Part shown: in pieces, positions 1,494-52,334 of the stretch
Layout of the letters: each line of letters begins with the position of its first letter
How positions within the stretch are numbered: the stretch's first letter is position 1
Sequence record: OQ955832.1
DNA length: 57,756 nt
Reading direction: 5' to 3' (one strand)
Origin: Escherichia phage vB_EcoS_PJ16
The notes under the pieces: generated by a model
The model's database searches: none
Seen by the model: only the letters and a program-made list of their open reading frames with translations
Told to the model about the DNA's origin: nothing
Translations under genes and position numbers: made by a program

Positions 1494-1540
1494 GTAATTT
1501 ACACTTCCCTGTGTAATCCGTCAAGAATTATTTTAAATTT
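1494..1540 (-). promoter_or_regulatory. sigma70-type promoter with UP element (conserved family)
   Basis: Minus strand: UP AT-tract, -35 TTGACG (1519-1524), 17-bp spacer, -10 TAAATT (1496-1501). Confidence 0.65.
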
Positions 1541-3768: not shown

Positions 3769-3815
3769 GAAGTCTATCTGATAATGTGTAAACCGTCAAG
3801 AATTATTTTAAACTG
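3769..3815 (-). promoter_or_regulatory. sigma70-type promoter with UP element (conserved family)
   Basis: -35 TTGACG (3794-3799), 17-bp spacer, -10 TAGACT (3771-3776), AT-rich UP element. Confidence 0.55.
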
Positions 3816-10647: not shown

Positions 10648-10695
10648 AAAGCATAACTGCGTATCTGTAATCAGTCAAGAATTATTTTAACACCG
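10648..10695 (-). promoter_or_regulatory. sigma70-type promoter with UP element (conserved family)
   Basis: -35 TTGACT (10673-10678), -10 TATGCT-like, UP AATTATTTTAA. Confidence 0.5.
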
Positions 10696-12496: not shown

Positions 12497-12841
12497 TCAG
12501 TTAACATACTTCGCGATCAGTTTATCACAATCCTCGCGACAGGTAGCATACTTAAACAGGTCACTGGCTGCTTCTGCGCGGTAGTCAGTATCAATGGTGT
12601 AATGTTCATTAACATAATTATAGGCTGCAAGGTAATTGCTGAACATCCCCGTGGTTACCACTTTCGGTTGTTCCCTTACGACCTTACCGTTAAACAGATG
12701 TGCGATTAGCAGAATCAGACCACCGATCACAGGACTTGTGAGAAATGCGATAAAGAACCATACACCAGGGTTACGACCTGTTTGTTTGGCAACACCCGCG
12801 ACAACCAGAGAGAAAAGAATCCATAAAATAGCGAATAACAT
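12497..12841 (-). CDS. Hypothetical membrane protein (114 aa)
   Basis: Track ORF; two N-terminal TM helices; strong RBS AGGAGG. Confidence 0.5.
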   Translation of the reverse strand: MLFAILWILFSLVVAGVAKQTGRNPGVWFFIAFLTSPVIGGLILLIAHLFNGKVVREQPKVVTTGMFSNYLAAYNYVNEHYTIDTDYRAEAASDLFKYATCREDCDKLIAKYVN

Positions 12842-12869
12842 GATTGTGTCCTCCTTTGTTTTGATGTTT

Positions 12870-12916
12870 GTAGGTTACACATCCTTGTGCAATCCGTCAA
12901 GAATTATTTTAGATTA
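12870..12916 (-). promoter_or_regulatory. sigma70-type promoter with UP element (conserved family)
   Basis: -35 TTGACG (12895-12900), 17-bp spacer, -10 TAACCT; leader nearly identical to promoter at 27470. Confidence 0.55.
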
Positions 12917-14010: not shown

Positions 14011-14058
14011 AAATGTTAGTGTTACTGCTTGCAATGTGTCAAGAATTATTTTAAACTT
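14011..14058 (-). promoter_or_regulatory. sigma70-type promoter with UP element (conserved family)
   Basis: -35 TTGACA (14037-14042), 18-bp spacer, -10 TAACAT (14013-14018). Confidence 0.55.
14029..14057 (+). promoter_or_regulatory. Putative divergent plus-strand promoter overlapping the minus-strand element
   Basis: TTGCAA-17 bp-TAAACT on plus strand; same arrangement recurs at 44612. Confidence 0.35.
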
Positions 14059-17545: not shown

Positions 17546-17592
17546 ACAGGGTAGTTGTGTCGGTGTAATTTGTCAAGAATTATTTTAAAGAT
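17546..17592 (-). promoter_or_regulatory. sigma70-type promoter with UP element (conserved family), left arm of divergent pair
   Basis: -35 TTGACA (17571-17576), 17-bp spacer, TACCCT; inverted copy of promoter at 17898. Confidence 0.55.
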
Positions 17593-17880: not shown

Positions 17881-17928
17881 TATACGTAAAATAATTCTTG
17901 ACGGATTACACCGACACAAATACCCTGT
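17880..17928 (+). promoter_or_regulatory. sigma70-type promoter with UP element (conserved family), right arm of divergent pair
   Basis: TAAAATAATTCTTGACGGATTACACC; -35 17898-17903, TACCCT at 17921-17926. Confidence 0.55.
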
Positions 17929-17956
17929 GGTTAAGAAAACAAGAAGGGTTGAATGT

Positions 17957-18304
17957 ATGAATCCGAACATCAGAGTTGCTACAGACGAATTCATTCGTCG
18001 CGCCCGTAAAGTTCACGGTGATCGTTACGACTACTCATTCAGCATTGTTGAAGATAGTTCCAGCACAGTGGTTATTATTGACTGTGAAACTAACACAGTG
18101 TTTTTCCAGGTTGTCGCTGAACATCTGGACGGTGTTGAACCAGTAACGACTGCTGTTGAACCAGTAACGACTGCTGTTGAATCGATCAAGAATCTTTCTG
18201 AGACATTCGGTAACGTTGCAAACAGCGTGTATCACCAGTGCAATTATTCATCTGAAATGTTAGAATTTAGTCATGTTGAAACAATACGAGGACAATCCCC
18301 GTGA
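17957..18304 (+). CDS. Hypothetical protein with degenerate zinc-ribbon-like N-domain and VEPVTTA repeat
   Basis: Track ORF 17927-18304 trimmed to ATG 17957; DEFIRRARKVHGDRYDYS matches N-domain of 26624-27235 protein but lacks Cys ligands. Confidence 0.45.
   Translation: MNPNIRVATDEFIRRARKVHGDRYDYSFSIVEDSSSTVVIIDCETNTVFFQVVAEHLDGVEPVTTAVEPVTTAVESIKNLSETFGNVANSVYHQCNYSSEMLEFSHVETIRGQSP
18134..18175 (+). repeat. 21-bp tandem repeat x2 (in-frame, VEPVTTA)
   Basis: gttgaaccagtaacgactgct repeated exactly. Confidence 0.8.
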
Positions 18305-25707: not shown

Positions 25708-25727
25708 CATGGTGGATGGTAGTGATT

Positions 25728-25751
25728 GCCCGGTTAACGCCGGGCTTTTTT
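25728..25751 (+). terminator. Rho-independent terminator
   Basis: Stem gcccgg/ccgggc then T6. Confidence 0.7.
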
Positions 25752-25812
25752 GTTGCGTAATTTGTACAGAACTATTATTATCTAATCGTCTAATACATAA
25801 AAGGTAAAAACC

Positions 25813-26235
25813 ATGTCAAAGTTTGACCATCTGAAAAAAGCACTTTCCCCATTAGTGCTGAAGTCTTCTGCTGAACTGATTTTAAATGAAAATTTCAGTA
25901 TCACTGTGTTGAACCTGAACACCGCTAATCAGGTATATAACGTAACAGTCGCGGACTATGTAAAACAAAACGGTGTGTTGTCTGAAAACTTCTTTGAAAA
26001 ACTGTGGAATCAGGAATATACACCAGAAGGTGTTAAGTTCGTGGCTAACGTTCTTATGCTGGACTGGAAACTGATTGGTGAAGATGACAAACCGGAACCA
26101 TTCAGTGTTGAAGAAGCTATTGAACTGTTAAGTGATGAACGTTTTGGTCAGGTGATCTACAGTCGTGTTATTCAGTTCGCAATTAATTCCGCATTCTTCA
26201 AGGACGAATGGGAAAAACAGATTGAAAAAAACTGA
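25813..26235 (+). CDS. Tail assembly chaperone (G-like)
   Basis: 140 aa, acidic; ends with slippery heptamer A_AAA_AAC just before stop. Confidence 0.6.
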   Translation: MSKFDHLKKALSPLVLKSSAELILNENFSITVLNLNTANQVYNVTVADYVKQNGVLSENFFEKLWNQEYTPEGVKFVANVLMLDWKLIGEDDKPEPFSVEEAIELLSDERFGQVIYSRVIQFAINSAFFKDEWEKQIEKN

Positions 26236-26531
26236 TCGACTTCCTCTTGTGGAACGATAAGACAGACGGGGACGACCTGGACTGGGTTACACAAGGGGCG
26301 GCTGCACGTGGTATATCTGTTCCGGTTGTTGTACAGAAACGACCTAGATTGCGACCTGATGCTATATTTTTTTGGAATGCTTACGTGGATCTGATGGAAG
26401 CTGATTGGGTTGCTTGTGAGCGATATGCACGGGTGTATAACGTTGATGTACAATTCCTATGGAAATTATTGGTAGCGTTGCGGTCTGCACGTGTTGTCGA
26501 GATGAAGAAAAATAAACACAAGCCCGGTTAG
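26226..26531 (+). CDS. Tail assembly chaperone -1 frameshift extension (GT-like)
   Basis: -1 frame opens at 26226 within the heptamer and runs to 26531; track ORF 26247-26531 is the same frame. Confidence 0.5.
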   Translation, partial: KKLIDFLLWNDKTDGDDLDWVTQGAAARGISVPVVVQKRPRLRPDAIFFWNAYVDLMEADWVACERYARVYNVDVQFLWKLLVALRSARVVEMKKNKHKPG

Positions 26532-26544
26532 TTCCGGGCTTTTT
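26519..26544. terminator. Bidirectional rho-independent terminator
   Basis: Stem agcccgg/ccgggct with U-rich tracts on both strands between convergent genes. Confidence 0.65.
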
Positions 26545-26623
26545 CATTTATGTAGTCGAGGATTGCAGGAGAGTATTTAAACCACTCTGTAGCACCGTCA
26601 AAACCTTTAAGACGCGCGTTAAG

Positions 26624-27235
26624 TTAATGATAGACCTTGTGTACCTCTTGTTCCAGTTTATACGCGTCGGCGCCTTGTGGGAACGGATACGACACGAGTT
26701 TAACCACGGGGTGTGGAGTTCGTCGTTGTAGTTGTCGTAGTCGCTGTTTTAAGTCGTTTGTAATACCAACTTTAAGCAGAGTAGGACACTGTTTATCGTC
26801 AGTTAACACGTAGAGCGTTCCGTGTTCTGACGGGTTAAAACCTGTTTCAGCGCACTGGGGGCAACCTTGTTTCATTGAAGTGTGATTGTTCGGAGTCTGT
26901 TCAAACACACCGTGTTCTGAACAAATGATTTTCACAGGAGTACACCGATTAACATACTCCACCAACGAATAGTCGTAACGGTCCCCGTGAACTTCACGGG
27001 CGCGTGTAATAAACTCTTCTGTGGTTAAACGTTGTTGCTTAACTGCACATTGGGGACAACCTCTCCCGCGAACATGATTATTAGGAATCTGTTCAAACAC
27101 ACCATGTTCAGGACAGGTGATCTTCACAGGAGTACACCAATTCACATACACCACTAGCGAGTAATCGTATTTGTGCCCATGAACTTCACGGGCACGTGTG
27201 ATAAATTCTTCTGTGGTTAAACGTTTCCTACTCAT
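26624..27235 (-). CDS. T5orf172 (GIY-YIG-like) domain protein with duplicated zinc-ribbon domains
   Basis: Two tandem copies of EEFITRAREVHG-YDYS...GCPQCA; C-terminal GTLYVLTDD...KVGIT...EQEVH resembles T5orf172 domain. Confidence 0.55.
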   Translation of the reverse strand: MSRKRLTTEEFITRAREVHGHKYDYSLVVYVNWCTPVKITCPEHGVFEQIPNNHVRGRGCPQCAVKQQRLTTEEFITRAREVHGDRYDYSLVEYVNRCTPVKIICSEHGVFEQTPNNHTSMKQGCPQCAETGFNPSEHGTLYVLTDDKQCPTLLKVGITNDLKQRLRQLQRRTPHPVVKLVSYPFPQGADAYKLEQEVHKVYH

Positions 27236-27236
27236 C

Positions 27237-27416
27237 TTATTTGTCGCTTTTTAACACAGCCCAGATTAACGCACCTAACCAACCGACGAATGTCCAACCC
27301 GCAAAGATGTTAAGTAAAATAATTGCTGTTTGTTGTTTATGTTTAATGTTAATCGCGATGAGTGCTGGGATCAGATATACAGCAGCGATTAAGAAAAGAA
27401 TGATGAAAGTAGCCAT
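27237..27416 (-). CDS. Small membrane protein, superinfection-immunity-like (59 aa)
   Basis: Not in track; strong RBS GGAGGG; NIFAGWTFVGWLGALIWAV resembles Imm-type motif. Confidence 0.45.
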   Translation of the reverse strand: MATFIILFLIAAVYLIPALIAINIKHKQQTAIILLNIFAGWTFVGWLGALIWAVLKSDK

Positions 27417-27444
27417 TTTGTAACCCTCCGTTGTTTTGTTGATT

Positions 27445-27492
27445 GTAGGTTACACGTCTTTGTGTAATCCGTCAAGAATTATTTTAAACGTT
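27445..27492 (-). promoter_or_regulatory. sigma70-type promoter with UP element (conserved family)
   Basis: -35 TTGACG (27470-27475), 17-bp spacer, TAACCT; leader paralogous to 12895 promoter. Confidence 0.55.
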
Positions 27493-27550
27493 TGTCGCTT
27501 TTTAGACCCGTGTTAAACTGTGTACATGCTTCGTGAAAAGGTTAACCACA

Positions 27551-30118
27551 ATGGCACAGTATCCGATTGATATAAAAATAGACACTGGTAACGCTGACAG
27601 AAATCTTAACAGTCTTAATAACCAGTTAGACCAAACAGCTAATTCTGCAAAATCTGCTGCACAAGCGGCAAACACTTTATCAAAAAGTGAACAGCAAGCT
27701 GCAAAATCTGCACAAGTAATGGCGTCAAATACTGGTAACGCTACATCATCTTTAAAGACGATGGCATCTGGCGTAAATCTTGCAACAAACGCCGTTCGTG
27801 GTTTTATGGCAATAGGTGCGGTGTCTTCTGCTATTGAGTTAGGAAAAGCGTTTATTGTTGCGGGTGATGCAGCTAATCAACTCGAAGCTCGTATTGCAAG
27901 ATTGACCGGGAGTACATCATCAGCCAAACAAACATTTCAAACACTCGCGGATATTGCCTCTAAAACAGGTGGTGGTCTTGCTGATACTGAACGTTTATGG
28001 GAAACCTTATCATCATCATTAAAGGATAGCGGTGCAACAAACGATCAGATATTACGATTAACTGAAACACTTCAAAAAATAGGTCGTGTTGGTGGTTCAT
28101 CTGCTGAAGAAATGTCTAACGCATTACGTCAGTTTGGTCAGTCAATTTCATCTGGTGTAGTTCGTGCAGAAGAATTTAACAGCATTGTTGAACAGATGCC
28201 AGAACTGGCAAGACAGATGGCTGCTGGTTTAGGTATTTCAATGGGTGAGTTACGTCAGCAAATGCTGAATGGTGAACTTACAGCGGAACAAGCATTGAAC
28301 GCTATCATTCGTCAAACGCAAAATGTTGATGAAGAATTTAGCAAATTGCCACGGTCTTTAGATCAGGCCACAAATTCGTTATCTGTATCGTTAGCCACGT
28401 TTGTTGCAAGCATGAATGATGTGACTGGAGCATCAAATCTTGCTGTAGACGCTATTGATACACTTACAGGTTTCATCAATAAATTAGGCGATGATTCAAC
28501 AACAACTGCTGATAAATTGTGGTCAATAGCTGGCGTAATATCTAAGTTACAACCTGGTGCTATCGGAGCATCCCTTGCCGATCTGGTCTGGTCAAATGAT
28601 GATGTAAATAATGCAAAAGCGTACAATGACCAGGTTGATAGATTTGTTAAAGCATCTGCTGCTGGATACGAACAAGCTAAAAAAAACCGTGATGCTACAA
28701 AACCTATTTCTATAAAAGGGACAAATGCATCAGACGCGGAAGCACAAAAACAGATTAAAAACCTAAAAGAACAGATCACTTACACCCAGGCGCTTGCTGA
28801 CGGTAACTATGAACTGGCAGCAAGTCAGAAACTGGGTAACAAAGCAACAAAGGAACAGATTGCAGACTACGCCGCGTTGTTGAAACAACAGGCAGAATAT
28901 AAAGAAAATCAAAAAAACCAGAAGAAATCAGCGAGTGCTGAAGCATCTGCTGCTAAACGTGCACAGAAAGAACTGGAACGTAATCAGGCTGCTAACCAGA
29001 AATACCTGAAAACGCTTCAGGATAAAATCAATGCTGGTAATTATGATGTTCAGTTAGCCCGCGAACAGGTTCAGATTGCTTTAACACAGGGATCGTCTGT
29101 TGAGCAACTTACAGCAACGTATCAGAAAGAATATCAGGTACGTCAACAGTTAACGCTGGCATCACAACAGGCAGAAGCACAGTCACGACTGAATAAAGAC
29201 GCGACTGATGCTGAACGTGCTGCCGTTGATGCGCATGTGGCTGCGTTGCAACGTCAACAGCAGATAGCACAGTTAAGCGCAGATGTAAAACAAGTTGACA
29301 TTGATGTGAAAGCACAGTTGAACCCGTATCAATCACAAATTGATCAGGTTAATCAACAGGAAGCAACACGTCTTAGTATTACCCAAGCTGCCCGTGAACA
29401 AGATTTAATCAACGAGCAACAATACCAGGATATGAAAACGCAGATTCAACAGGCTGGTGAACAAGCCCGTACGAATCTTGCAAATGCTAACTACAGCTTG
29501 TTGCTACAATCCAGTGCTGATTTTTTGGGTCAAATGGCTGCTGGTCTGGCACAATCTAAAGGTGAGCAATCAAACGCGTATAAAGCGATGTTTGCACTGT
29601 CTAAAGCCTTTAGTATTGCACAGGCAAGCATTAACCTGTGGACAGCAGTTAGCCAGGCTATGGCGTTGCCGTTCCCGGCGAATATTCCATTCATTGCACA
29701 GGCTTTAGCATACGGAACAAGCGTGTTAGGTAATATTCAGTCTGTGGCTGCAACAGGTTTTGCAACGGGTGGTTATGTTAAAGGACCGGGTACAGGTCAG
29801 AGTGACAGTATAAACGCACGTTTGAGTAATGGTGAATTTGTCAGCACCAAACAGGCTACCAGTCGTTATCGTAGCACTCTGGAAGCAATGAATCGTGGGA
29901 CATACACCCCCGGGTCTGAAGGTGGTTCATCACCTAATATTCAGGTTCATAACTACGGTGGTGAACGTGTTCAGGTGAAACAAGGATTAACACGGGATGA
30001 TGTAGTGCTTATCATAGGTGAAGAATTCCCACGACAATCAGCGGCACAATGGAATGACCCGTACAGTCAGACGAATAAAGCATTCAGGTCTAACTATGAT
30101 GCGAACAGGAAAATATAA
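27551..30118 (+). CDS. Tail tape measure protein
   Basis: Track ORF 27533-30118; 856-861 aa, helical, Q/A-rich; position after chaperone pair. Confidence 0.8.
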   Translation: MAQYPIDIKIDTGNADRNLNSLNNQLDQTANSAKSAAQAANTLSKSEQQAAKSAQVMASNTGNATSSLKTMASGVNLATNAVRGFMAIGAVSSAIELGKAFIVAGDAANQLEARIARLTGSTSSAKQTFQTLADIASKTGGGLADTERLWETLSSSLKDSGATNDQILRLTETLQKIGRVGGSSAEEMSNALRQFGQSISSGVVRAEEFNSIVEQMPELARQMAAGLGISMGELRQQMLNGELTAEQALNAIIRQTQNVDEEFSKLPRSLDQATNSLSVSLATFVASMNDVTGASNLAVDAIDTLTGFINKLGDDSTTTADKLWSIAGVISKLQPGAIGASLADLVWSNDDVNNAKAYNDQVDRFVKASAAGYEQAKKNRDATKPISIKGTNASDAEAQKQIKNLKEQITYTQALADGNYELAASQKLGNKATKEQIADYAALLKQQAEYKENQKNQKKSASAEASAAKRAQKELERNQAANQKYLKTLQDKINAGNYDVQLAREQVQIALTQGSSVEQLTATYQKEYQVRQQLTLASQQAEAQSRLNKDATDAERAAVDAHVAALQRQQQIAQLSADVKQVDIDVKAQLNPYQSQIDQVNQQEATRLSITQAAREQDLINEQQYQDMKTQIQQAGEQARTNLANANYSLLLQSSADFLGQMAAGLAQSKGEQSNAYKAMFALSKAFSIAQASINLWTAVSQAMALPFPANIPFIAQALAYGTSVLGNIQSVAATGFATGGYVKGPGTGQSDSINARLSNGEFVSTKQATSRYRSTLEAMNRGTYTPGSEGGSSPNIQVHNYGGERVQVKQGLTRDDVVLIIGEEFPRQSAAQWNDPYSQTNKAFRSNYDANRKI

Positions 30119-44531: not shown

Positions 44532-44578
44532 TAACTTTAAAAGGTGTTGTGTAATCTGTCAAGAATTATTTTACACTC
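44532..44578 (-). promoter_or_regulatory. sigma70-type promoter with UP element (conserved family)
   Basis: -35 TTGACA (44557-44562), 17-bp spacer, -10 TAAAGT (44534-44539). Confidence 0.6.
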
Positions 44579-44593
44579 ACCTTTCGTTGATGC

Positions 44594-44641
44594 AGATGTT
44601 AGAGGAATAAGTTGCAATGCGTCAAGAACTATTTTAAACTT
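44594..44641 (-). promoter_or_regulatory. sigma70-type promoter with UP element (conserved family), tandem second copy
   Basis: -35 TTGACG (44620-44625), 18-bp spacer, -10 TAACAT. Confidence 0.55.
44612..44640 (+). promoter_or_regulatory. Putative divergent plus-strand promoter
   Basis: TTGCAA-17 bp-TAAACT; 37 nt upstream of helicase GTG start. Confidence 0.4.
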
Positions 44642-50529: not shown

Positions 50530-50577
50530 GGACGTGTAAAATAATTCTTGACGAATTACAGATATGTGCGCTATAGT
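50530..50577 (+). promoter_or_regulatory. sigma70-type promoter with UP element (conserved family)
   Basis: TAAAATAATTCTTGACGAATTACA; -35 50548-50553, -10 TATAGT 50572-50577. Confidence 0.55.
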
Positions 50578-51905: not shown

Positions 51906-52297
51906 TAATAGTCGTTACAGGCGGTCGTGACTTCAACGACAGAACAGCGGTATTTTCAGCATTAGGGTTACTTCACAAACAATTCCCGGTTACCGAACTG
52001 ATTGAAGGCGGTGCATCAGGTGTTGATAACCTGTGTAAGCAATGGGCGCAATTACACGGTATTCCTGTACGTAGTTGCCCGGCAGCATGGGACGATCTGA
52101 CTGTACCAGGTGCGGTTGTAAAACAGGGTAAGCATGGGCCTTATAACGCTGTTGCAGGTCATCAACGTAATCAGGCAATGTTAGAGGGTGAACCACGCCC
52201 TACATACGGTGTTGTGTTCCCCGGTGGGCGTGGTACTGCCGACATGCATCGTCGTATGTTGAAAGCTGGTTTAACTGTGTGGGTTCCATATCCTTAA
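51902..52297 (+). CDS. SLOG/LOG-like Rossmann-fold protein (DUF2493-like)
   Basis: VVTGGRDF, GGASGVD and PGGRGTADM motifs. Confidence 0.5.
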   Translation: MIIVVTGGRDFNDRTAVFSALGLLHKQFPVTELIEGGASGVDNLCKQWAQLHGIPVRSCPAAWDDLTVPGAVVKQGKHGPYNAVAGHQRNQAMLEGEPRPTYGVVFPGGRGTADMHRRMLKAGLTVWVPYP

Positions 52298-52334
52298 AAT
52301 AATTCTTGACAGATTACCAACCTCCCCCGATAAT
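52290..52334 (+). promoter_or_regulatory. sigma70-type promoter with UP element (conserved family)
   Basis: TAAAATAATTCTTGACAGATTACC; -35 52306-52311, 17-bp spacer, -10 GATAAT 52329-52334. Confidence 0.6.

What the first reader, a model, noticed from the sequence alone, without database searches (positions are those of the whole stretch)
26519..27492. Reverse-oriented moron cassette (promoter, Imm-like membrane protein, T5orf172/zinc-ribbon protein, terminator) inserted between tail chaperone and tape measure genes
The rightward tail operon is interrupted by a leftward unit with its own conserved promoter (27470) and bidirectional terminator (26519-26544). It encodes a 59-aa membrane protein with a superinfection-immunity-like motif, missed by the ORF track (which lists a spurious opposite-strand ORF), and a protein with two tandem zinc-ribbon domains plus a T5orf172/GIY-YIG-like domain. 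This looks like a mobile or exclusion cassette.
Basis: partly seen in the sequence, partly recalled or inferred. Interest (0 to 1): 0.6.

Follow-up and report, generated by a model that had tools for sequence, protein, structure and literature searches.

The report
Phage immunity gene with decayed homing endonuclease
A small optional two-gene insert in the tail operon of a known E. coli phage pairs an intact T4-Imm-type "keep other phages out" membrane protein with a selfish DNA-cutting gene that is broken in this genome; it is a real but ordinary kind of phage accessory cassette.

Summary
The window is the complete genome of Escherichia phage vB_EcoS_PJ16, a Sashavirus/9NA-like siphophage. 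Bases 26552-27508 are absent from Sasha, Sergei, Solent, AVIO78A, PDP46 and 9NA, where the tail chaperone and tape measure genes are about 70 bp apart. The insert is a leftward unit. It starts at one of 12 copies of the phage's own consensus promoter. Next comes a 59-aa Imm_superinfect protein (Pfam E=1e-16, homologous to T4 Imm). A tightly abutting gene for a Zn-finger + T5orf172 (GIY-YIG-fold) protein follows. The unit ends in the backbone's bidirectional hairpin.

An in-frame TAA (26624-26626) removes the last 31 residues of the nuclease domain, which are invariant in ten intact alleles. One of three Zn-finger modules has also been lost through a 207-nt in-frame deletion. Intact 300-304-aa alleles, and intact 235-aa alleles with two modules, occupy the same site in relatives. 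Three other relatives carry independent disruptions.

The family matches the free-standing T5orf172 homing endonucleases described for ICP1 and other phages. The position and presumed function parallel the archetypal HK97 gene 15 moron. Both genes are already annotated publicly. Verdict: a new member of a known kind, of modest interest.

The parts
25813..26235 (+). Tail assembly chaperone, G part (left flank, backbone)
   Evidence: phrog_8233 E=3e-48. It is 97-99% identical to the annotated chaperones of Sasha, AVIO78A and Bas82.
26247..26531 (+). Tail assembly chaperone, T extension. This is the frameshift product in annotated relatives. Its stop lies in the loop of the terminator hairpin.
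   Evidence: phrog_8233 positions 147-250. Sasha gp45 is annotated as a joined frameshift product.
26520..26541 (.). Bidirectional terminator-like hairpin (8 bp stem, 6 GC pairs). It is backbone sequence shared with genomes that lack the cassette. Both convergent ORFs end in its loop.
   Evidence: Pattern scan on both strands. RNA fold -16.8 kcal/mol, z=-4.2. Present in Sasha and AVIO78A.
26552..27508 (-). Cassette-specific DNA (957 bp). It replaces about 10 nt (TATGGTTAAC) of the empty site found in Sasha-type genomes.
   Evidence: blastn and junction alignments against Sasha, AVIO78A and L007.
26528..26623 (-). Orphaned 3' end of the endonuclease ORF: 31 codons (LNARLKGFDGATEWFKYSPAILDYINEKARN) plus the original stop. 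It is now untranslated. The last 7 codons lie in backbone sequence.
   Evidence: Read-through translation. The Pfam T5orf172 score rises from 35 to 48.5 bits when this segment is included. These 31 residues are invariant in 10 intact alleles.
26624..26626 (-). Premature TAA stop. Relatives have GAA (Glu) here. A single coding-strand G>T change is responsible, with an adjacent synonymous change at 26627.
   Evidence: Pairwise alignment with BDX09P1. Intact alleles P0001 and L058-L063 read HKVYHELNARL.
26627..26821 (-). Truncated T5orf172 / GIY-YIG-like nuclease domain (residues 139-203). It keeps strands 1-3 and helices 1-2, including the invariant Arg165 and Glu195. It loses the FxGxTEWF motif, the last strand and the last helix.
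26840..27031 (-). Zn-finger DNA-binding module 2 (CapR/DUF723/DUF4379 type). It is a chimera of relatives' modules 2 and 3. The 207-nt in-frame deletion junction is at about 26924/26925.
   Evidence: Two DUF723 and two DUF4379 stretches. 151-nt direct repeat with 84% identity. 207-nt gap against BDX09P1. Protein comparisons.
27032..27223 (-). Zn-finger DNA-binding module 1
26624..27235 (-). Whole remaining ORF of the homing-endonuclease-family gene (203 aa, WKV24558.1). Its ATG lies 1 nt after the imm stop and has no Shine-Dalgarno sequence of its own, so translational coupling is inferred.
   Evidence: phrog_681 'endonuclease' E=1e-58.
27237..27416 (-). imm: a 59-aa hydrophobic membrane protein of the Imm_superinfect family (WKV24559.1). 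It is intact.
   Evidence: PF14373 E=1e-16. phrog_1039 E=3e-18. BLASTP to T4 Imm E=3e-7, with T4 W50 aligned to W41. Intact in all 18 cassettes examined.
27424..27429 (-). Shine-Dalgarno sequence GGAGGG, 7 nt before the imm ATG
   Evidence: Read from the sequence.
27447..27488 (-). Leftward promoter: AT-rich upstream element plus -35 TTGACG (27470-27475), a 17-nt spacer, and -10 TAACCT (27447-27452).
   Evidence: The 15-mer core occurs 12 times against 0.01 expected. Downstream hexamers and genes. 26 nt are 100% identical to the promoter of Sasha gp43 in another slot.
27240..27253 (.). 14-nt direct repeat, copy A (TTTGTCGCTTTTTA), at the imm 3' end and endonuclease start
   Evidence: Conserved in all cassettes, and changes together with copy B in Bas82.
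27491..27504 (.). 14-nt direct repeat, copy B, just upstream of the promoter at the right edge of the insert
27551..30118 (+). Tape measure protein (right flank). Its first ~1.2 kb (to 28746) is a different allele from that of most cassette-less relatives.
   Evidence: TMP PHROGs. blastn and blastp against Sasha.

Best explanation
This is an optional accessory cassette (a 'moron') of Sashavirus/9NA-like virulent siphophages. It sits between the tail assembly chaperone and tape measure genes and is transcribed against the tail operon.

**Expression.** A copy of the phage's own consensus sigma-70-type promoter drives a two-gene transcript that ends at the backbone's bidirectional hairpin. The promoter is probably of the early class, which is inferred.

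**Gene 1, imm.** It encodes a small inner-membrane protein homologous to T4 Imm. By homology, it blocks genome entry of later-arriving phages, probably by engaging their tape measure protein at the inner membrane.

**Gene 2.** It is a free-standing homing endonuclease of the T5orf172 (GIY-YIG-fold) family, with two or three Zn-finger DNA-binding modules. In mixed infections, an intact copy would cut cassette-less genomes near the chaperone/tape-measure junction. Repair from the cassette-bearing genome would then copy the endonuclease gene into the break, with imm carried along as cargo.

**State in PJ16.** The endonuclease gene is decaying. One Zn-finger module was lost by recombination between repeats, and a nonsense codon removes the conserved C-terminal third of the nuclease domain. 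The cassette is probably immobile in this genome, while imm is retained intact.

**Shown:** gene identities, insert boundaries, the presence/absence polymorphism, the lesions, the promoter family and the fold.
**Inferred:** exclusion activity, tape-measure targeting, homing, the cleavage site, expression timing and loss of nuclease activity.
For: **Identity.**
- The window is phage PJ16.
- imm: PF14373 at 61 bits, phrog_1039, T4 Imm E=3e-7.
- T4 Imm itself matches PF14373 with E=7e-16.
- T4 Imm is reported to bind the T4 tape measure protein, with W50 important for exclusion (bioRxiv 10.64898/2026.03.06.709160). W50 aligns with W41 here.

**Endonuclease family.**
- T5orf172 plus DUF723/DUF4379 and phrog_681.
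- The AlphaFold model of the intact parent allele has pLDDT 88.
- 1097 phage records carry homologues, often several per genome. One homologue splits a DNA polymerase gene in Klebsiella phage KLPPOU148.
- The literature describes T5orf172 homing endonuclease genes with repeated CapR/DUF723 Zn-fingers. It also reports in-frame deletions between repeats and positions at recombination boundaries near TMP and TAC genes (PMC10448857).
- The T5orf172 protein Odn cuts DNA, and its E180A mutant is inactive (PMC8263062).

**Mobility signature.**
- The site is empty, with exact junctions, in Sasha, AVIO78A, Solent, Sergei, PDP46, 9NA and seven environmental contigs.
- The cassette sits at the identical site in both the window-type and the Sasha-type tape-measure background (L026).
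- It lies at the left edge of a 2.2-kb mosaic block, 26552-28746.

**Decay.**
- PJ16 has the TAA codon and a 207-nt deletion.
- Independent lesions occur in BDX09P1 (2-nt deletion), L026 (frameshift) and L061 (50-nt deletion).
- Intact alleles show 29 synonymous-only against 17 amino-acid-changing variable codons. Their last 31 residues are invariant.
- imm is intact in all 18 copies.

**Promoter.** 12 copies against 0.01 expected.
Against: - No expression data and no functional assay exist for either gene in this phage group.
- Exclusion has been shown only for T4 Imm, which is 26% identical over 47 residues. T4 R33, also reported as important, aligns with Ile24 here.
- The cleavage site is unknown, and homing has not been shown for this subfamily.
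- The same polymorphism could arise from ordinary homologous recombination in the conserved flanks.
- The truncated protein keeps the invariant Arg and the Glu that most likely correspond to the catalytic residues. Residual nuclease or DNA-binding activity therefore cannot be excluded.
- imm shows almost no synonymous variation, while the adjacent nuclease domain is old and diverse. The two genes therefore do not have the same history, which fits imperfectly with simple co-mobilisation as one unit.
- Imm sequence does not vary with the linked tape-measure allele (L026 against L008). This argues against a tuned Imm/TMP pair.
Confidence: 0.72

Rival explanations
1. The cassette is a plain moron with a passenger nuclease gene. 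It was acquired once by illegitimate recombination and spreads only by general homologous recombination in its conserved flanks. The T5orf172 gene plays no part in its movement.
For: The flanks are 95-100% identical among relatives, which is ample homology for exchange. The promoter is the phage's own type and recurs 12 times, giving further recombination substrates. L026's leader matches another window promoter at 95%. Four of about 18 cassettes have a dead endonuclease gene yet persist.
Against: Intact alleles dominate, and their nuclease domain is under purifying selection with an invariant C-terminus. That is hard to explain for a functionless passenger. Family members show classic homing-endonuclease behaviour elsewhere: many copies per genome and a split polymerase gene.
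Confidence: 0.15
2. The two genes form a two-layer competition module. Imm blocks entry of rival phages. The Zn-finger/T5orf172 nuclease attacks the DNA of rivals or satellites that do get in, as ICP1 Odn does. It would act as a weapon rather than as a selfish homing element.
For: Odn is a T5orf172 nuclease used against a satellite (PMC8263062). There are weak PADLOC hits to the candidate defence protein PDC-S57 (E=1e-6 to 1e-4). The Zn-finger region is hypervariable, at 60-85% nucleotide identity, as expected if target recognition diversifies.
Against: The architecture is the ordinary Zn-finger type of homing endonuclease, not a chimera with a target's own DNA-binding domain as in Odn. Repeated inactivation suggests it is dispensable. 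In practice, marker exclusion of rivals and homing are two sides of the same activity.
Confidence: 0.08
3. In PJ16 the truncated protein is a domesticated DNA-binding regulator, in the manner of CapR. It would consist of two Zn-finger modules with a disabled nuclease. It might, for example, repress its own promoter or the tail operon. The conserved 14-nt repeats beside the promoter and at its own start codon would be candidate binding sites.
For: CapR is a domesticated relative of T5orf172 endonucleases that acts as a repressor (PMC8096241 and PMC10448857). The DNA-binding modules are intact here. The 14-nt direct repeat flanks the promoter+imm unit and changes together in Bas82.
Against: The exact truncated form is found on a single contig, this genome. 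No lineage of truncated forms has been maintained. The other lesions hit different places, including the Zn-finger region (L026). L026 carries the Bas82-type protein but not the Bas82-type repeat change.
Confidence: 0.04
4. The stop codon is a sequencing or assembly error, and PJ16 really encodes an intact 235-aa enzyme with two modules.
For: Only one contig carries this exact protein. Intact 235-aa two-module alleles exist (P0023, P0059, L067).
Against: The change is a substitution next to a second substitution, not a homopolymer indel. Independent lesions in three other genomes show that decay is common at this locus.
Confidence: 0.08

Closest known systems
Bacteriophage T4 Imm (immunity to superinfection; Pfam PF14373)
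   Same: Both match the same Pfam family above threshold (61 and 58 bits). They show direct pairwise similarity (E=3e-7), and the Trp reported as important in T4 (W50) is conserved as W41. Both are small, hydrophobic membrane proteins of virulent phages.
   Different: The protein is 59 aa against 83 aa and lacks T4's N-terminal helix. Identity is only 26%. T4 R33 is not conserved. The gene lies in the tail operon next to the tape measure gene rather than next to the DNA polymerase gene. It is unknown which phages it excludes.
HK97 gene 15, the archetypal moron (Juhala 2000; Cumby 2012; reviewed in PMC3594210)
   Same: The genomic position is the same, between the tail assembly chaperone and tape measure genes. 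Both encode a small inner-membrane protein that blocks genome injection in a way that depends on the incoming tail.
   Different: The protein family is unrelated (YebO-like against Imm). HK97 is temperate and expresses gp15 from the prophage, whereas this phage is virulent. Here the unit is reverse-oriented, borrows the backbone terminator and carries a homing endonuclease gene.
T5orf172-family free-standing homing endonuclease genes of ICP1 and other phages (Barth, Dunham & Seed 2023, PMC10448857); Odn (PMC8263062)
   Same: Both have a C-terminal T5orf172/GIY-YIG domain and N-terminal repeated CapR/DUF723/DUF4379 Zn-finger modules. Both show in-frame deletion between repeats (compare gp174*), a location beside TAC/TMP genes, and a position at a mosaic boundary.
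   Different: This is a different subfamily in enterobacterial siphophages. No cleavage or homing data exist for it. Its immediate cargo is an accessory exclusion gene rather than essential genes. The copy in this window is truncated.
T4 Seg/Mob free-standing GIY-YIG/HNH homing endonucleases (intronless homing, marker exclusion)
   Different: The DNA-binding domains differ: Zn-finger repeats here, against the helix-turn-helix and minor-groove modules of I-TevI/Seg. There is no experimental evidence here.

Membership tests
Imm_superinfect (PF14373, T4 Imm family) | Match to the family profile above the curated threshold over its full length | tested here: met
   61.0 bits against a cut-off of 27.9, E=1e-16, profile positions 1-42 of 42. 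phrog_1039 E=3e-18.
Imm_superinfect (PF14373, T4 Imm family) | Detectable homology to the one experimentally characterised member, T4 Imm | tested here: met
   BLASTP E=3e-7, 26% identity over 47 aa. T4 Imm matches the same Pfam model.
Imm_superinfect (PF14373, T4 Imm family) | Small protein made almost entirely of hydrophobic membrane helices | tested here: met
   The sequence has two long hydrophobic stretches (about residues 3-22 and 30-54) separated by NIKHKQQT. This was read from the sequence, and no topology predictor was run.
Imm_superinfect (PF14373, T4 Imm family) | Residues reported as important for T4 Imm exclusion (W50, R33) | tested here: inconclusive
   W50 aligns with W41 and is conserved. 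R33 aligns with I24, with K25 next to it.
Imm_superinfect (PF14373, T4 Imm family) | Blocks genome entry of superinfecting phage and binds the tape measure protein | not testable with these tools
   Needs plating, DNA-entry and co-purification experiments.
T5orf172 / GIY-YIG-superfamily homing endonuclease | T5orf172 domain match above the curated threshold | tested here: met
   35.1 bits against a cut-off of 20 for the 203-aa ORF, and 48.5 bits with read-through.
T5orf172 / GIY-YIG-superfamily homing endonuclease | Complete nuclease domain | tested here: not met
   Only profile positions 1-66 of 101 are encoded before the TAA at 26624-26626. The missing 31 residues are invariant in 10 intact alleles and include the invariant F, G and E of FxGxTEWF. 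Relatives' alleles are complete.
T5orf172 / GIY-YIG-superfamily homing endonuclease | GIY-YIG fold | tested here: met
T5orf172 / GIY-YIG-superfamily homing endonuclease | Catalytic Arg and Glu | tested here: inconclusive
   The invariant R234 (helix 1) and E264 (helix 2) of P0001 correspond to R165 and E195 in the window. Both lie upstream of the stop. Their equivalence to I-TevI R27/E75 is inferred from the order of secondary-structure elements. No residue-level superposition was available.
T5orf172 / GIY-YIG-superfamily homing endonuclease | Modular sequence-specific DNA-binding region (CapR/DUF723/DUF4379 Zn-fingers) | tested here: met
   Two DUF723 and two DUF4379 stretches, plus a sub-threshold CapR match. 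Each module has a C-x2-H ... C-x2-C pattern. Relatives have three modules.
T5orf172 / GIY-YIG-superfamily homing endonuclease | Optional presence at a fixed site between conserved genes in otherwise collinear relatives | tested here: met
   Present in at least 18 and absent from at least 13 related genomes or contigs, with identical junctions.
T5orf172 / GIY-YIG-superfamily homing endonuclease | Site-specific cleavage of the endonuclease-less allele and super-Mendelian inheritance | not testable with these tools
   Needs in-vitro cleavage of the Sasha-type junction and mixed-infection crosses.
Moron (Hendrix/Juhala sense) | Extra DNA between two genes that are adjacent in related phages | tested here: met
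   The chaperone stop and tape measure start are about 70 bp apart in Sasha and AVIO78A, against about 1020 bp here.
Moron (Hendrix/Juhala sense) | Own promoter and own terminator | tested here: inconclusive
   A promoter motif lies inside the insert and belongs to a 12-copy phage family. The terminator is not part of the insert, because it is pre-existing backbone hairpin read in reverse. No transcript data are available.
Moron (Hendrix/Juhala sense) | Base composition different from the surrounding genes | not tested
   No composition profile was run. The promoter and leader are native-type.

The most novel reading that the evidence does not exclude
The most novel reading is that a homing endonuclease and a superinfection-exclusion gene form a cooperative mobile unit placed next to the gene for the exclusion protein's own target, the tape measure protein.

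Under this reading, the endonuclease spreads imm, imm's benefit keeps the locus alive after the endonuclease decays, and linkage to the tape measure gene is selected rather than accidental.

**Observations that fit:**
- Imm-family genes sit beside TAC/TMP genes in at least three siphophage lineages: Sashavirus, the Bas79/swi2/AB4P2 type, and Pseudomonas phage YMC11/02/R656.
- T4 Imm and HK97 gp15 both act through the tape measure protein or the tail.
- Synonymous diversity dips sharply at imm: 1 of 59 codons, against 19 of 140 in the chaperone gene and 29 of 98 in the nuclease domain. This could reflect a recent sweep.

**Observations that count against tuned pairing:**
- Imm sequence does not track the tape-measure allele.
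- T4-like phages keep imm far from their tape measure gene.
Probability: 0.2. Interest if true: 0.55.

Novelty: new member of a known kind. Interest (0 to 1): 0.3.

Why it matters
The practical lessons for annotation are specific:

- The 203-aa 'hypothetical protein' of PJ16 is a truncated homing-endonuclease gene.
- The cassette is dispensable.
- Testing this copy for nuclease activity would probably fail. Bas82 or 536P12 alleles should be used instead.

The biological value is modest. The cassette gives a clean natural series at one locus: empty site, intact alleles with three or two Zn-finger modules, and four independent decayed alleles. This series illustrates the invade, spread and decay cycle of homing endonuclease genes. 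Here an accessory exclusion gene, rather than an essential gene, is the retained neighbour.

An Imm-family gene sits where HK97 carries gene 15, next to the tape measure gene. Recent work says T4 Imm targets the tape measure protein. This suggests a testable idea about linkage between exclusion genes and their targets in siphophages. For phage-therapy use of PJ16-like phages, an active imm could affect the design of phage cocktails.

Tried and rejected
- **Generic sigma-70 scan.** It did not call the cassette promoter. I relied on motif recurrence instead.
- **Rfam.** There was only a sub-threshold Trp_leader match over the terminator hairpin (30.7 bits against 41) and a chance frameshift-element match. 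Both were rejected.
- **PADLOC and NCBIfam.** PADLOC gave only weak PDC-S57 matches for the nuclease domain and none for imm. NCBIfam gave nothing useful.
- **Intermediates with only imm or only the endonuclease gene.** A scan of viral contigs for the junction, plus protein-based scans of viral and metagenome contigs, found only complete cassettes.
- **Strict linkage between the cassette and the window-type tape measure allele.** Rejected because L026 pairs the cassette with the Sasha-type allele.
- **The opposite-strand 60-aa ORF as the real gene.** Rejected. Its third codon positions coincide with those of imm, so substitution patterns cannot separate the two. Only the minus-strand product matches protein families.
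- **The lost C-terminus as the site of the catalytic Glu.** The order of secondary-structure elements suggests the catalytic Glu (E195) lies upstream of the stop. Inactivation is therefore inferred from loss of invariant structural residues, not from loss of the catalytic residue.
Full report
**What the window is**

The exact 59-aa and 203-aa products are GenBank proteins WKV24559.1 and WKV24558.1 of Escherichia phage vB_EcoS_PJ16. That genome is 57,756 bp, the same length as the window. Megablast places the region in the Sashavirus/Nonanavirus (9NA-like) group of virulent siphophages. [quoted passage not shown] The chaperone has a G part (25813-26235) and a T extension (26247-26531). The tape measure gene runs from 27551 to 30118.

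**Checking the observation**

- **ORFs.** The ORF list gives 27237-27416(-), 59 aa, and 26624-27235(-), 203 aa. It also gives an opposite-strand 60-aa ORF over imm.
- **imm.** The 59-aa product matches Pfam Imm_superinfect over the full model (61 bits, cut-off 27.9) and phrog_1039. It aligns to T4 Imm with E=3e-7. T4 Imm matches the same Pfam model.
- **Second gene.** The 203-aa product has two DUF723/DUF4379 Zn-finger stretches and a T5orf172/MUG113 match, and it matches phrog_681 'endonuclease'.
- **Terminator.** The hairpin at 26520-26541 fits the terminator pattern on both strands. On the leftward transcript it folds at -16.8 kcal/mol, z=-4.2.
- **Promoter.** The generic promoter scan missed it because the -10 hexamer (TAACCT) is weak. 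However, its core AAAATAATTCTTGAC occurs 12 times in the window against 0.01 expected. Each copy has a TAnnnT hexamer 17-18 nt downstream and is followed by a ribosome-binding site and a gene. 'Conserved promoter' is therefore correct, and it is the phage's own promoter type.

Translating through the stop at 26624-26626 gives 31 more residues in frame, LNARLKGFDGATEWFKYSPAILDYINEKARN. This is the conserved end of a T5orf172 domain. With the stop bridged, the Pfam match extends from profile positions 1-66 to 1-94 of 101, and the score rises from 35 to 48.5 bits.

Relatives encode intact proteins of 300-304 aa with three Zn-finger modules:

- Bas82, annotated as 'endonuclease'
- 536P12
- two IMG/VR contigs
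- several Logan, ENA and NCBI contigs

Alignment with the nearly identical BDX09P1 cassette shows three things. PJ16 has TAA where relatives have GAA. An adjacent synonymous change is also present. A 207-nt in-frame deletion has fused modules 2 and 3. Intact 235-aa alleles with two modules exist (P0023, P0059/L052, L067). The module loss alone may therefore be tolerated. The nonsense codon is unique to this genome.

**What the truncation removes**

The truncation keeps strands 1-3 and helices 1-2, with the invariant Arg and one invariant Glu. It removes the invariant F/G/E of the FxGxTEWF motif, the last strand and the last helix. Those 31 residues are identical in ten intact alleles, even though the domain shows 29 synonymous-only and 17 amino-acid-changing variable codons. 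I infer that the PJ16 protein is inactive or unstable as a nuclease. This has not been shown.

**The cassette as a polymorphism**

Comparison with Sasha and AVIO78A defines the insert as 26552-27508. It replaces about 10 nt. The terminator hairpin and the last seven codons of the endonuclease ORF lie in sequence shared with cassette-less genomes.

The cassette is absent from these genomes:

- Sasha, Sergei, Solent, PDP46, AVIO78A and 9NA
- seven environmental contigs

It is present in these:

- PJ16, Bas82, BDX09P1 and 536P12
- IMG/VR contigs L006 and L008
- metagenome contig L026
- Logan contig L052
- ten further contigs that carry the identical Imm

Relative to Sasha, PJ16 is about 96% identical up to 26551 and again from 28747. 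The intervening 2.2 kb is different. It holds the cassette plus the first 1.2 kb of the tape measure gene, whose product is 856 aa against 972 aa in Sasha. L026, however, carries the cassette at the same junction joined to the Sasha-type tape measure allele. The cassette therefore moves as a discrete unit.

Besides PJ16, three cassettes have independent endonuclease lesions:

- BDX09P1: 2-nt deletion
- L026: frameshift
- L061: 50-nt deletion

imm is intact in all copies.

**How it most likely works**

*imm.* T4 Imm is an early inner-membrane protein that blocks genome entry. A 2026 preprint reports that it binds the T4 tape measure protein and that W50 matters for exclusion. W50 aligns with W41 here, while R33 is not conserved.

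*Parallel with HK97.* The archetypal moron, HK97 gene 15, occupies the same chaperone/tape-measure position. It encodes an unrelated inner-membrane exclusion protein whose effect depends on the incoming tail (PMC3594210).

*The second gene.* It belongs to the T5orf172 homing-endonuclease family described by Barth et al. 2023. That family has the following reported features:

- repeated CapR/DUF723 Zn-finger modules
- in-frame deletions between the repeats
- frequent location beside TAC/TMP genes and at recombination boundaries

A family member, Odn, has been shown to be a nuclease. Homologues occur in 1097 phage records, often several per genome. One splits a DNA polymerase gene.

*Model.* The phage's own promoter drives imm and the tightly abutting endonuclease gene. 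The start codon of the endonuclease gene lies 1 nt after the imm stop. An intact enzyme cuts cassette-less genomes in mixed infection, and repair then copies the cassette into them. In PJ16 the drive component has decayed, while imm is retained. Expression, exclusion, cleavage and homing are all inferred.

**Puzzles**

1. imm has almost no synonymous variation: 1 synonymous-only against 6 amino-acid-changing variable codons in 18 copies. The chaperone gene shows 19 against 3 (Fisher p=0.001). The adjacent nuclease domain is deeply diverged, and the Zn-finger region is only 60-85% identical. imm and the endonuclease gene therefore have different histories. Possible explanations are a recent sweep of the imm/promoter/tape-measure-5' block across older endonuclease alleles, or rapid recombinational turnover of the endonuclease gene.
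2. A 14-nt direct repeat (27240-27253 and 27491-27504) brackets exactly the promoter+imm unit. Both copies carry the same G>A change in Bas82. No arrangement with only imm or only the endonuclease gene was found.
3. Imm-family genes lie next to TAC/TMP genes in at least three siphophage lineages but not in T4-like phages. Imm sequence does not co-vary with the linked tape measure allele.

**Verdict**

The finding is real and its interpretation is essentially right. It is a new member of well-described kinds: the Imm family, T5orf172 homing endonucleases, and a moron at the classic HK97 gene 15 position. Both genes are already annotated publicly. The useful additions are four:

- the endonuclease copy here is a decayed allele
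- the boundaries of the insert are exact
- the promoter and terminator are native to the phage
- the population-level picture shows intact, two-module and decayed alleles at one locus

Interest is modest.

Noticed in passing
window 25708-25812; L002 2204-3013 (Sasha), L001 2566-3013 (Bas82), L003 2663-3013 (AVIO78A): There is a second polymorphic slot for leftward accessory genes, between the major tail gene and the chaperone gene. It is empty in this window, where only a terminator hairpin at 25728-25745 is present. Sasha has a 207-aa gene there, Bas82 an 87-aa gene and AVIO78A a 55-aa gene. Each is driven by the same consensus promoter, and 26 nt of Sasha's copy are identical to the imm promoter.
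   Followed up: partly
window 17927-18304 (+): A 125-aa ORF lies behind a consensus promoter copy at 17888. It begins with half of a CapR/DUF723-like module (FIRRARKVHGDRYDYS) but lacks the Zn-binding cysteines and any nuclease domain. It matches no Pfam or PHROG family. It may be a remnant of another homing endonuclease gene just upstream of the head genes.
   Followed up: partly
window 1520-1534, 3795-3809, 10674-10688, 12896-12910, 14038-14052, 17572-17586, 17888-17902, 27471-27485, 44558-44572, 44621-44635, 50538-50552, 52296-52310: Twelve copies of the 15-mer AAAATAATTCTTGAC (AT-rich element plus -35) occur against 0.01 expected. Each has a TAnnnT hexamer 17-18 nt downstream. They include a divergent pair at 17.6/17.9 kb and a tandem pair at 44.6 kb. 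This appears to be the phage's main host-polymerase promoter family.
   Followed up: partly
window 27240-27253 and 27491-27504: An exact 14-nt direct repeat (TTTGTCGCTTTTTA) brackets the promoter+imm unit, which is 251 bp start to start. It is conserved in all cassettes. In Bas82 both copies carry the same G>A change. It could be a recombination scar from a separate acquisition of imm, or a protein-binding site. This is unexplained.
   Followed up: partly
window 12497-12910 (-): The promoter and leader of a 114-aa hydrophobic protein gene (phrog_27401, unknown function) closely resemble those of imm. In metagenome contig L026 the imm leader is 95% identical to this one over 62 nt. This suggests exchange between promoter copies.
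   Followed up: no
window 27551-28746: The first ~1.2 kb of the tape measure gene is a different allele from that of Sasha-type phages: 77% identity for 200 nt, then no nucleotide similarity. The protein is 856 aa against 972 aa, which predicts a shorter tail. The mosaic boundary on the left is the cassette.
   Followed up: partly
window 26311-26460: A patch inside the chaperone T extension is only 81-92% identical among relatives that are 96-100% identical on either side.
   Followed up: no
window 27237-27416 compared with 25813-26235 and 26531-26821: There is a trough of synonymous diversity at imm: 1 of 59 codons, with 6 amino-acid-changing codons. The chaperone gene shows 19 synonymous-only and 3 amino-acid-changing codons, and the nuclease domain shows 29 and 17. 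All the Imm replacements are conservative (T/S, A/G, I/V, V/I, A/S, D/N).
   Followed up: partly
L054 3971-7642 (Pseudomonas phage YMC11/02/R656); L015, L016, L055: Imm-family genes sit directly beside chaperone/tape measure genes in other siphophage lineages. In the Pseudomonas phage the Imm domain is part of a 195-aa protein encoded co-directionally just upstream of a 1006-aa probable tape measure gene. In swi2 a homologue of the Zn-finger/T5orf172 gene lies just past the tape measure gene.
   Followed up: partly
window 26464-26547 (+): A sub-threshold Rfam Trp_leader match (30.7 bits against a gathering score of 41) covers the end of the chaperone gene and the terminator hairpin. It is most likely only the hairpin plus U-run.
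   Followed up: no
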